From the NCBI RefSeq assembly GCF_003018255.1, contig NZ_CP027440.1: a stretch of 64,000 nt of DNA; one strand, written 5' to 3'. Source of the DNA: Escherichia coli. GTDB taxonomy: Bacteria; Pseudomonadota; Gammaproteobacteria; Enterobacterales; Enterobacteriaceae. Made by a program: the position numbers. Below are positions 12,207 to 15,200 of this stretch, piece after piece. Every line of letters starts with the position of its first letter. Within the stretch, counting starts at the first letter, position 1.

Positions 12207-15200
12207 ACGTTGAACATGTGCCAGACGTTGGCGCAGCATTGCTTTGGCAAACCCCTCCCTTCGTTTCCCCGCGATAATATGACCAACCTCTCATAATTTA
12301 AATTTACCCCGCTCTGGTGATTCTCAAACGCCGGATGTTACCCGTATCATTCACGTGGGTACCAAACATACTCCTGACATCTGACTACAATAATTAGTTT
12401 TAGTGGGTATCAGTCGTGGTGCCGCAATATCTCTGTTCCCGATTGGGATAATTAGAGTTTGTCGTCAGAAAATTGACGTTACCCATAACAAATGAAAGGC
12501 CAGGTAAATCATGCCATTAGTCATTGTTGCTATCGGTGTAATCTTGTTGTTGCTCCTGATGATCCGTTTCAAAATGAACGGCTTCATCGCTCTCGTCCTC
12601 GTGGCGCTTGCTGTTGGATTAATGCAAGGAATGCCGCTGGATAAAGTTATTGGCTCCATCAAAGCCGGTGTCGGCGGAACGCTCGGTAGCCTTGCCCTGA
12701 TCATGGGTTTTGGCGCGATGCTGGGCAAAATGCTGGCAGACTGCGGTGGCGCACAACGTATCGCCACCACGCTGATTGCCAAATTTGGTAAAAAACACAT
12801 CCAGTGGGCGGTGGTACTGACTGGTTTTACCGTTGGTTTTGCCCTGTTCTATGAAGTGGGCTTTGTGCTGATGCTGCCGCTGGTGTTTACCATCGCGGCT
12901 TCCGCGAATATTCCACTGCTGTATGTTGGTGTACCAATGGCGGCTGCACTGTCTGTGACCCACGGCTTCCTGCCACCGCATCCGGGTCCGACTGCGATTG
13001 CCACCATTTTCAATGCCGATATGGGTAAAACTCTGCTGTACGGGACTATTCTGGCAATTCCGACCGTGATTCTCGCCGGTCCGGTTTACGCTCGCGTGTT
13101 GAAAGGTATCGATAAGCCGATCCCGGAAGGTCTGTACAGCGCGAAAACCTTCAGCGAAGAAGAGATGCCGAGCTTTGGCGTCAGCGTCTGGACCTCTCTG
13201 GTGCCGGTAGTGCTGATGGCGATGCGTGCGATTGCCGAAATGATCCTGCCGAAAGGTCACGCTTTCCTGCCGGTAGCGGAGTTCCTCGGTGACCCGGTAA
13301 TGGCTACGCTGATTGCCGTACTGATTGCGATGTTCACCTTTGGTCTGAACCGTGGTCGTTCAATGGATCAGATTAACGACACGCTGGTTTCTTCCATCAA
13401 AATCATTGCGATGATGCTGTTGATTATCGGTGGTGGCGGTGCGTTCAAGCAGGTGCTGGTAGACAGCGGCGTGGATAAATACATTGCTTCCATGATGCAC
13501 GAAACCAACATTTCTCCGCTGCTGATGGCCTGGTCGATTGCTGCCGTACTGCGTATCGCGCTGGGTTCTGCAACCGTTGCGGCAATCACTGCAGGTGGTA
13601 TCGCGGCACCGCTGATTGCAACGACGGGTGTTAGCCCGGAGCTGATGGTTATTGCGGTTGGTTCCGGTAGTGTGATTTTCTCTCACGTGAACGATCCGGG
13701 CTTCTGGTTGTTCAAAGAGTACTTTAACCTGACTATCGGCGAGACCATCAAATCCTGGTCGATGCTGGAAACCATTATCTCGGTGTGCGGTCTGGTAGGC
13801 TGTCTGCTGCTGAATATGGTGATTTGATAACACTGACTGCCGGATGCATCGCATCCGGCATCAACCGCACTCTACTTCTTCTTCGCTGCCGCTCTGCGCC
13901 GTCTGTCCAAATCCTTCAGCAACTTGTTCACGCCATCATCGGCAAACATCGCCTCAAGCGTTGCGGAGAGCTTGCGCCGCCAGTTTTTATACTGGTAACT
14001 GGTGCCGGGAATATTTACCGGATCTGCCATATCCAGCCAGTCTTCCGGCTGTAACCCTAACAGGGCGCTGTTGCTATCGGCGATGTAGCGCTGTAAGCCA
14101 CGATTCAGCGTCGGTGTCATCGACATCAACGATGCCTTATGCCCGGCACGTTTTGGCAGGCAACCATATTTATGCAGAGCATCCAGCAGCCCTTGCTTCG
14201 CCAGTTCGCGATCCTGATACAGACCGCGCAGTACCACTTCATCCGGATACAGCCCCAGCGTTTTGCCCAGCGTTAAATCCCCGCTCTCCCAGTAGCCGCG
14301 TAGCGTAGGCAGGTCGTGTGTCGCCGCAACCGCCATCGACTGCTCTGGGTACGCTTTCGGTGCGCGGAATGTCTTCTCGTGGTCGTTTTCGAAATAGAGC
14401 ACTTTGTAGGAGTACACACCGCTGCTGCGCAGCTTACCGACAATCTCTACCGGTACGGTACCGAGATCTTCACCAATCACCATACAGCGATGACGTTTAC
14501 TTTCGAGTGCCAGAATCGAGAGCAGATCATCCACCGGATAGTGAACATACGCGCCCTGATCTGCCGTCTCGCCATACGGTATCCACCACAAACGCAGCAT
14601 CGACATCACGTGATCAATTCGTAATGCGCCGCAGTTTTGCATATTGGCACGCAACAGCTCGATAAACGGTTCATAGGCACGCGCGGTGATAATATGCGGG
14701 TCCATTGGCGGCAATCCCCAGTTCTGCCCCAACGGGCCGAGGATATCCGGCGGCGCGCCAACCGACGCTTTCAGGCAATACAGTTCACGGTCACACCAGG
14801 TTTCCGCCCCACCTTCCGCTACACCAACGGCCAGATCACGATACAAGCCAATCGGCATTTCATAGCCCTGGCTTATCTCCCAGCAGGCGGCAAACTGGCT
14901 GTAAGCCAGCCACTGCAACCAGAGATAAAAATCGACGTCATCACGATGTTCTTCGCAGAACTGGCGCACTTCTGGTGAATCCACGTTCTGATACATCTCT
15001 GGCCATGCTGGCCAGCCCCAGCGCATTTCGTCCTCTTTCACTTGCTGGGCATGTAGCGCATCAAAGGCTGCCTGCCAGAACAGGCTGTCGCCCTGCTCTG
15101 CAACAAACTGGCGAAACGCGGTCATCTGCTCATCATCACGTTGCGCGAAACCTTTCCACGCCATTCGTAATGCTGTCATTTTTAGGGCGGTAACCGTGGA

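What the first reader, a model, noticed from the sequence alone, without database searches (positions are those of the whole stretch)
12336..12490. Shared GTTACCC-TA-CA operator motif upstream of gntT and gntK
tgttacccgtatcat (12336-12350), cgttacccataaca (12477-12490) and the reverse-orientation tandem atgttacgggtaac / tgttatcggtaacat (52876-52904) share one near-palindromic core, consistent with a LacI-type GntR operator shared by the gluconate genes in this window.
Basis: partly seen in the sequence, partly recalled or inferred. Interest (0 to 1): 0.25.

Follow-up and report, generated by a model that had tools for sequence, protein, structure and literature searches.

The report
Known GntR operators of gluconate genes
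These four short near-palindromes are the long-known binding sites of the E. coli gluconate repressor GntR in front of the gluconate transporter gene gntT and the kinase/transporter operon gntKU; they are real and functional, but not new.

Summary
The window is E. coli chromosome. It holds four 16-bp near-palindromes of the type ATGTTA-N4-TAACAT:
- two upstream of gntT (12335-12350 and 12476-12491)
- two overlapping ones upstream of gntK (52876-52891 and 52889-52904)

The published GntR consensus ATGTTACCCGTAACAT, allowing up to 3 mismatches, hits only these four places in 64 kb (0.54 expected by chance).

Two of the sites are letter-for-letter the sequences that held papers used as "the E. 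coli GntR operator". They gave gluconate-relieved repression in a cell-free system and a gluconate-controlled gene switch in human cells.

GntR, a LacI-family protein, is encoded next to gntK in the window. The first gntT site covers the predicted -10 hexamer TATCAT.

Across 27 Enterobacteriaceae gntT upstream regions, the first site is invariant at 16 of 16 positions and the second at 14 of 16. Only 3 of the 125 positions between them are invariant.

In other Enterobacterales families gntT carries two sites 14 bp apart, like the E. coli gntK pair. A 2014 comparative study of LacI-family regulons already described that arrangement.

Interest is low.

The parts
12335..12350 (+). gntT operator O1, ATGTTACCCGTATCAT. 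Its last six bases are the predicted -10 hexamer TATCAT.
   Evidence: One mismatch to the published consensus. Top weight-matrix score, 24.2 bits. Identical to the operator used in 10.1101/2023.01.10.523462. Invariant at 16/16 positions in 27 Enterobacteriaceae sequences. Unchanged in the 84%-identity E. coli allele.
12476..12491 (+). gntT operator O2, ACGTTACCCATAACAA. It lies in the predicted 5' untranslated region, 141 bp downstream of O1 and 19 bp before the ATG.
   Evidence: Three mismatches to the consensus. 16.3 bits. 14/16 positions invariant, and the core GTTACCCATAACA 13/13. Unchanged in the divergent E. coli allele.
52889..52904 (-). gntK operator A, the upstream one in the gntK direction: ATGTTACCGATAACAG.
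   Evidence: 21.2 bits. Identical to the GntR site used in PMC10450161. Identical in a K-12 derivative.
52876..52891 (-). gntK operator B, CAGTTACCCGTAACAT. It overlaps operator A by 3 bp (13-bp offset), and together they form a 29-bp near-palindrome.
   Evidence: Two mismatches. 16.6 bits. The overlapping pair at gntKU is reported functional, and the arrangement conserved, in PMC4052901.
12321..12350 (+). Predicted sigma-70 promoter of gntT: TTCTCA, 18-nt spacer, TATCAT.
   Evidence: The only + strand promoter-like site in the intergenic region. ATTCTC is largely conserved across genera. TATCAT is called the -10 that comes with the operator. The transcription start near 12357 is inferred.
12278..12293 (+). 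CRP-like site TATGACCAACCTCTCA. Its centre is about 71.5 bp upstream of the inferred start.
   Evidence: Two mismatches to TGTGA-N6-TCACA. The half-sites TGAC and TC.CA are conserved across genera. cAMP-CRP control of gntT is stated in the title of Peekhaus & Conway 1998 (cited). The match alone is not significant.
52959..52974 (-). CRP-like site upstream of gntK: TTTGAAGTAGCTCACA on the gntK strand.
   Evidence: One mismatch. Its function is inferred from position only.
12511..13827 (+). gntT, the high-affinity gluconate transporter (regulated gene).
   Evidence: NCBIfam NF011560, 931 bits. RefSeq annotation.
52318..52845 (-). gntK, gluconokinase, with a TTG start (regulated gene).
   Evidence: NF008583, 373 bits. 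Annotation.
50974..52314 (-). gntU, the low-affinity gluconate transporter, lying 3 bp downstream of gntK in the same orientation (the gntKU unit).
   Evidence: NF007781, 914 bits. Annotation.
52984..53979 (-). gntR, the LacI-family repressor that reads the four sites.
   Evidence: NF011563 equivalog, 776 bits against a cut-off of 433. Annotation.

Best explanation
The four sites are the operators of GntR, the LacI/GalR-family gluconate repressor encoded in the same window.

Without gluconate, a GntR dimer sits on each 16-bp near-palindrome.
- At gntT, O1 lies between the -35 and the -10 and covers the -10 hexamer TATCAT, so RNA polymerase is excluded.
- O2 lies 141 bp downstream, in the leader just before the ribosome-binding site. 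It adds repression, either by looping to O1 or as a roadblock.
- At gntKU, two sites offset by 13 bp cover the core promoter and start region.

Gluconate, or a close derivative, binds GntR and lowers its affinity for DNA, which frees both promoters. CRP-like sites upstream add catabolite control.

Shown here: the sequences, their statistical excess, their identity to operators used experimentally, the identity of the regulator, and deep conservation.

Inferred: the exact transcription starts, the roles of the CRP-like sites, and how O2 and the overlapping pair contribute.
For: - Sequence and statistics.
- The regulator is a LacI-family GntR equivalog.
- O1 equals the operator that gave GntR repression and gluconate de-repression in a cell-free system, where TATCAT served as the -10.
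- gntK site A equals the GntR site of gluconate switches in human cells, and deleting or disrupting it abolished the response.
- PgntT and PgntK reporters are repressed more than 5-fold by GntR, and gntT, gntK and gntU changed at least 2-fold in a strain with an inactive gntR gene.
- The promoter scan places TTCTCA-18-TATCAT over O1.
- Conservation: O1 is 16/16 invariant and O2 14/16, against 3/125 between them, in 27 sequences from more than 10 genera.
- Across 80 loci, 147 consensus-like sites fall in 36.8 kb upstream of gntT and none in 219.6 kb of gene bodies and downstream sequence.
- There are no sites in the three Bacillota/Clostridium loci.
- gntR and gntK lie next to the site pair in Yersinia, Serratia, Dickeya, Rahnella and others.
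- A natural E. coli allele of the intergenic region is only about 85% identical yet keeps both operators intact.
Against: - No binding was measured here.
- The primary papers (Porco 1997, Izu 1997, Peekhaus & Conway 1998, Tsunedomi 2003) are not held. Their results are known only through citing papers and my recollection.
- O2 and gntK site B are weak matches (3 and 2 mismatches). Their scores of 16.3 and 16.6 bits fall within the best scores seen in shuffled windows (mean 11.3, maximum 17.2). Their case therefore rests on position and conservation.
- The promoter scan found no gntK promoter on the - strand, so the position of the pair relative to the start is inferred.
- O1-O2 spacing varies from 133 to 147 bp among genera, and is 65 bp in Pseudescherichia. 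That fits poorly with a strictly phase-dependent loop. It does not argue against GntR binding.
Confidence: 0.95

Rival explanations
1. The sites are read mainly by another LacI-family protein rather than by GntR. The obvious candidate is the paralog IdnR (GntH) of the GntII/idonate system.
For: GntR scores 402 bits against the IdnR model, so the two are close paralogs. PMC4052901 notes that GntR recognises IdnR sites at idnK and idnDOTR. It also cites a paper whose title says GntH exerts negative control of the GntR-regulated GntI genes. Cross-binding at these same sites is therefore likely as an addition.
Against: The exact sequences respond to GntR itself in purified or heterologous systems that contain no IdnR. 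Reporters differ only by the presence of gntR. gntR, not idnR, is the gene linked to the sites in the window and in other genera.
Confidence: 0.03
2. O2 (12476-12491) is conserved because it belongs to the gntT mRNA leader or translation-initiation region, not because it is a DNA operator.
For: The conserved block runs on from O2 to the ATG: positions 12492-12510 have a mean majority fraction of 0.92. O2 is the weakest match to the consensus.
Against: O2 keeps the two-fold symmetric GTTAC...(G)TAAC pattern of the other three sites. The predicted leader fold is unremarkable: z = -1.30, and 22 of 200 shuffles fold as well. The small hairpin next to O2 is not maintained in Citrobacter. There is no Rfam family at that position. 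From memory, Peekhaus & Conway 1998 showed by mutagenesis that both operators are needed for full repression.
Confidence: 0.02
3. The similarity is a chance recurrence of an AT-rich palindrome in promoter DNA.
For: A loose half-site pattern (ATGTTA-N4-TAACAT, up to 2 mismatches) also hits five unrelated places in the window, against 2.09 matches expected in all.
Against: With the full consensus, only the four sites remain. They are invariant across genera while the flanks are scrambled. Two are experimentally validated sequences.
Confidence: 0.005

Closest known systems
E. coli K-12 gntT operators and gnt consensus (Porco et al. 1997; Peekhaus & Conway 1998, J Bacteriol 180:1777)
   Same: The same locus and the same sequences. 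O1 is quoted verbatim as the E. coli GntR operator, with TATCAT as the -10. The consensus ATGTTACCCGTAACAT is quoted. The K-12-like allele has identical operators.
   Different: Nothing of substance. The window comes from a non-K-12 strain whose intergenic region is 98% identical to the K-12-like one.
E. coli gntRKU promoter with two overlapping GntR-binding elements (Izu et al. 1997; Tsunedomi et al. 2003a)
   Same: The same 29-bp pair, identical in a K-12 derivative. The 13-bp overlapping arrangement is cited as functional.
   Different: The only difference is one SNP, in the neighbouring 18-bp palindrome and outside the operators.
GntR group in the comparative study of LacI-family regulons (Ravcheev et al. 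2014, PMC4052901)
   Same: The paper reconstructs 37 GntR regulons in gamma-Proteobacteria. It states that overlapping sites about 13 bp apart are conserved in more than half of GntR-regulated operons. My 80-locus survey reproduces this.
   Different: My survey adds one detail: Enterobacteriaceae gntT carries a split O1/O2 arrangement 133-147 bp apart instead of the overlapping pair. I could not check whether the authors' regulon database already lists this.
LacI O1/O2/O3 and GalR OE/OI (auxiliary operators and DNA looping)
   Same: A main operator at the core promoter plus a second operator at a distance, read by a LacI-family repressor that a sugar-type ligand releases.
   Different: GntR lacks a demonstrated tetramerisation module in anything examined here. 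O1-O2 spacing is not kept in helical phase among genera. Looping at gntT was proposed in the literature (from memory) and was not tested here.
IdnR/GntH sites at idnK-idnDOTR (GntII system)
   Same: A paralogous regulator with a related motif, and documented cross-recognition.
   Different: Those genes are not in this window.

Membership tests
GntR (LacI/GalR-family) operators of the E. coli GntI gluconate regulon | The cognate regulator is the LacI-family GntR, and it is present in the genome. | tested here: met
   window:52987-53979(-) matches equivalog NF011563 at 776 bits (cut-off 433). Other hits are LacI-family members.
GntR (LacI/GalR-family) operators of the E. coli GntI gluconate regulon | A 16-bp imperfect palindrome matching the published consensus ATGTTACCCGTAACAT. 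| tested here: met
   1, 3, 2 and 3 mismatches at the four sites. No other place in 64 kb matches at up to 3 mismatches, with 0.54 expected. The consensus is quoted in PMC10450161.
GntR (LacI/GalR-family) operators of the E. coli GntI gluconate regulon | Located in the promoter or leader of gluconate uptake and phosphorylation genes, overlapping core promoter elements. | tested here: met
   O1 covers the predicted -10 of gntT. The pair lies 31-59 bp upstream of the gntK start codon, between gntR and gntK. The exact gntK start site was not determined.
GntR (LacI/GalR-family) operators of the E. coli GntI gluconate regulon | Sequence identity to operators shown experimentally to confer GntR- and gluconate-dependent control. 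| tested here: met
   ATGTTACCCGTATCAT is the operator. ATGTTACCGATAACAG is the site. Native PgntT and PgntK are repressed by GntR.
GntR (LacI/GalR-family) operators of the E. coli GntI gluconate regulon | Direct binding of purified GntR to these fragments, and release by gluconate. | not testable with these tools
   This needs a band-shift or footprinting assay. Such assays were reported in papers that are not held.
GntR (LacI/GalR-family) operators of the E. coli GntI gluconate regulon | Conservation in orthologous promoters, and co-occurrence with gntR. | tested here: met
   O1 16/16 and O2 14/16 invariant, against 3/125 between them. 147 sites upstream against 0 elsewhere in 80 loci. gntR and gntK are adjacent in many genera. 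Sites are absent from the Bacillota loci.
Repression by DNA looping between two operators (LacI/GalR type) | Operator spacing kept in helical phase, and an oligomeric repressor that bridges the two sites. | tested here: inconclusive
   Spacings are 133, 136, 139, 140, 141, 143, 144 and 147 bp among genera, and 65 bp in L056/L057, so no single phase is kept. The oligomeric state of GntR was not examined.

The most novel reading that the evidence does not exclude
The only open corner is mechanistic. Enterobacteriaceae replaced the overlapping operator pair found in other Enterobacterales (13-14 bp offset) with a split O1/O2 pair at gntT. Its spacing drifts through all helical phases: 133-147 bp, and 65 bp in Pseudescherichia. 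O2 may therefore work as an independent roadblock in the leader rather than through the phase-dependent loop proposed for K-12. Separately, how two LacI-type dimers occupy sites that overlap by 2-3 bp remains structurally unexplained, a point PMC4052901 itself raises.
Probability: 0.15. Interest if true: 0.3.

Novelty: already known. Interest (0 to 1): 0.07.

Why it matters
This is a positive control for the scan. A reader without tools correctly recognised a real regulatory motif shared by two promoters 40 kb apart. The sites themselves were defined in 1997-2003 and are already used as parts in gluconate biosensors and gene switches, so nothing new follows for gluconate regulation. The cross-genus footprint made here is a clean confirmation. 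Its one small pointer is the question of how O2 and the overlapping pair work.

Tried and rejected
- I tried to read the primary papers: PubMed 9537375, PMC107090, PMC178870 and PMC150117. None is held, so I relied on citing papers.
- The loose half-site pattern gave five extra hits. All fail the full consensus and the weight matrix (8.6 bits or less). One of them, at 27797-27813, is also a CRP-like match, in what the ATCC 11775 coordinates place as the glpD-glpE intergenic region.
- The promoter scan gave no - strand candidate for gntK. By eye, TTGCTT-17-GACAAT (52931-52903) would put the start near 52896 and the CRP-like site near -70.5, mirroring gntT. ATGTTA-18-TAACAT is an alternative. 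I could not decide between them.
- I tested the idea of an RNA element in the gntT leader. The fold z-score is -1.30. Rfam shows only a sub-threshold REP-type hit downstream of nfuA. Rejected.
- I did not run a second large scan for gntR-gntK intergenic regions of other Enterobacteriaceae. It would not change the verdict.

Full report
**What is there.** The window is Escherichia coli chromosome. The stretch around 12.1-12.6 kb matches 5,424 of 5,426 complete E. coli genomes and is annotated nfuA / gntT. The stretch around 52.7-53.1 kb is annotated gntK / gntR.

ORF listing and NCBIfam equivalog models agree on the genes:
- gntT 12511-13827 (+)
- gntU 50974-52314 (-)
- gntK 52318-52845 (-, TTG start)
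- gntR 52984-53979 (-)

GntR scores 776 bits against the 'gluconate operon transcriptional repressor GntR' model (cut-off 433). Its next-best hits are LacI-family proteins, so 'LacI-type GntR' is correct.

**The observation.** Extended by one base on each side, they are four 16-bp imperfect palindromes:
- ATGTTACCCGTATCAT (12335-12350)
- ACGTTACCCATAACAA (12476-12491)
- ATGTTACCGATAACAG (52904-52889, read on the gntK strand)
- CAGTTACCCGTAACAT (52891-52876, read on the gntK strand)

The last two overlap by 3 bp.

The fifth, at 60906, is inside ggt and is not symmetric.

Because that motif was derived from these very sites, I also used the consensus quoted in the literature, ATGTTACCCGTAACAT (PMC10450161). 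At up to 3 mismatches it finds only the four sites in 64 kb, with 0.54 expected and no shuffle reaching the observed count.

A weight matrix trained only on sites from other bacterial families (themselves picked by likeness to the same consensus) ranks the four sites first, at 24.2, 21.2, 16.6 and 16.3 bits. A wide gap separates them from the next position, at 8.6 bits. The two weaker sites alone would not stand out from the best shuffled scores (maximum 17.2). Their support comes from position and conservation.

**Link to experiments.** O1 is letter-for-letter the '16bp E. coli GntR operator' placed in a sigma-70 promoter of a cell-free sensor. There GntR repressed and gluconate de-repressed, and the authors note that the operator brings TATCAT as the -10 (bioRxiv 10.1101/2023.01.10.523462).

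The gntK site ATGTTACCGATAACAG is letter-for-letter the GntR recognition site used for gluconate switches in human cells. Deleting it, or inserting 2 bp at its centre, abolished the response (PMC10450161).

Native PgntT and PgntK reporters are repressed more than 5-fold when gntR is present (PMC13386637).

PMC4052901 states that the overlapping GntR sites upstream of gntKU were shown to be functional (Tsunedomi 2003a). It adds that this roughly 13-bp arrangement is conserved in more than half of GntR-regulated operons of gamma-Proteobacteria.

PMC3877293 lists GntR as a LacI/GalR subfamily induced by gluconate or gluconate-6-P.

The primary papers themselves are not held.

**Anatomy.** At gntT, the only + strand promoter-like site is TTCTCA-18-TATCAT (12321-12350). 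O1 therefore lies between the hexamers and covers the -10. The start is then near 12357 (inferred).

A CRP-like site, TATGACCAACCTCTCA (12278-12293), is centred about 71.5 bp upstream of that inferred start.

O2 lies 141 bp downstream of O1, about +127, and 19 bp before the ATG.

At gntK, the pair lies 31-59 bp upstream of the TTG start. A CRP-like site with one mismatch sits at 52959-52974. The scan found no - strand promoter, so the exact relation of the pair to the start is unresolved here.

**Conservation.** About 920 of 5,425 E. coli genomes carry an nfuA-gntT intergenic allele only about 84-85% identical to the window. Both operators, and the block from the CRP-like site to the -35, are untouched in it.

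A scan for GntT relatives in one genome per species returned 80 loci. Sites within 3 mismatches of the consensus number 147 in 36.8 kb upstream of gntT. There are none in 219.6 kb of gene bodies and downstream DNA, and none in the three Bacillota/Clostridium loci.

In Enterobacteriaceae with nfuA-gntT-malQ synteny, an alignment of 27 sequences gives these counts of invariant positions:

| Region | Invariant positions |
|---|---|
| O1 | 16/16 |
| O2 | 14/16 (core 13/13) |
| Between O1 and O2 | 3/125 |
| Upstream of the CRP-like site | 0/24 |

In Yersinia, Serratia, Dickeya, Rahnella, Pantoea, Erwinia and relatives, gntT instead carries two sites 14 bp apart. Often they sit in a divergent gntK/gntT region with gntR alongside. 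This is the arrangement E. coli keeps at gntK.

**Mechanism.** The best-supported reading (confidence 0.95) is the textbook one. GntR dimers occupy the operators and block RNA polymerase at the core promoters. Gluconate releases GntR. CRP adds catabolite control.

What remains inferred is how O2 helps. The literature, as I recall it, proposes a loop between O1 and O2. Across genera the spacing is 133-147 bp, and 65 bp in Pseudescherichia, so no helical phase is kept. That leaves a roadblock role open.

An RNA-level explanation for the conservation of O2 found no support. The fold z-score is -1.30, and there is no Rfam family at that position.

**Comparison and verdict.** These are the known GntR operators of the GntI regulon, so the feature is a member of a known family and is already described. 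This includes the overlapping-pair arrangement and its conservation.

Novelty: already known. Interest: low.

Noticed in passing
window 12151-12510 (nfuA-gntT intergenic region); loci L002, L004: E. coli is dimorphic here. About 920 of 5,425 genomes carry an allele only about 84-85% identical to the window, although NfuA and GntT are the same proteins and the flanking 300 nt differ by only 2-5%. The divergent allele is closer to E. albertii (about 90%) than to the common allele. All substitutions avoid the two operators and the block from the CRP-like site to the -35.
   Followed up: partly
window 52903-52920: A perfect 18-bp palindrome, ATTGTCCGGCCGGACAAT, abuts the gntK operator pair and shares 2 bp with it. 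A K-12 derivative has one mismatch in it (window G52910 is A there). No T-run follows on either strand, so it does not look like a standard terminator. Its function is unknown.
   Followed up: partly
window about 29,480-38,890 (between glgP and glpD): A chaperone-usher fimbrial gene cluster plus three hypothetical genes lies between glgP and glpD. By my recollection K-12 lacks it. A 3-kb probe from it is found in some form in 2,334 of 5,426 genomes, but at 80% coverage or more in only 553.
   Followed up: partly
loci L024, L029, L050 (Phytobacter and two relatives), about 120 bp upstream of O1: These loci carry a third GntR-like site (GTGTTACCCGTATCTT and variants) 120 bp upstream of O1, which suggests a local duplication of the operator region. 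The window has no counterpart.
   Followed up: no
loci L056, L057 (Pseudescherichia vulneris, Escherichia sp. ESNIH1): The same O1 and O2 are present but only 65 bp apart, instead of about 141 bp. This is a natural deletion in the leader that could be used to test the loop model.
   Followed up: no
window 12165-12249: A REP-type element lies just downstream of nfuA. It gives a sub-threshold Rfam naRNA4 hit (27.5 bits against a gathering score of 59.5). A terminator-like hairpin follows at 12217-12235.
   Followed up: no
window 27797-27813: A partial match to the loose half-site pattern is also a CRP-like match (TGTTATACATATCACT). The ATCC 11775 coordinates place it in the glpD-glpE intergenic region. 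It is unrelated to GntR.
   Followed up: no
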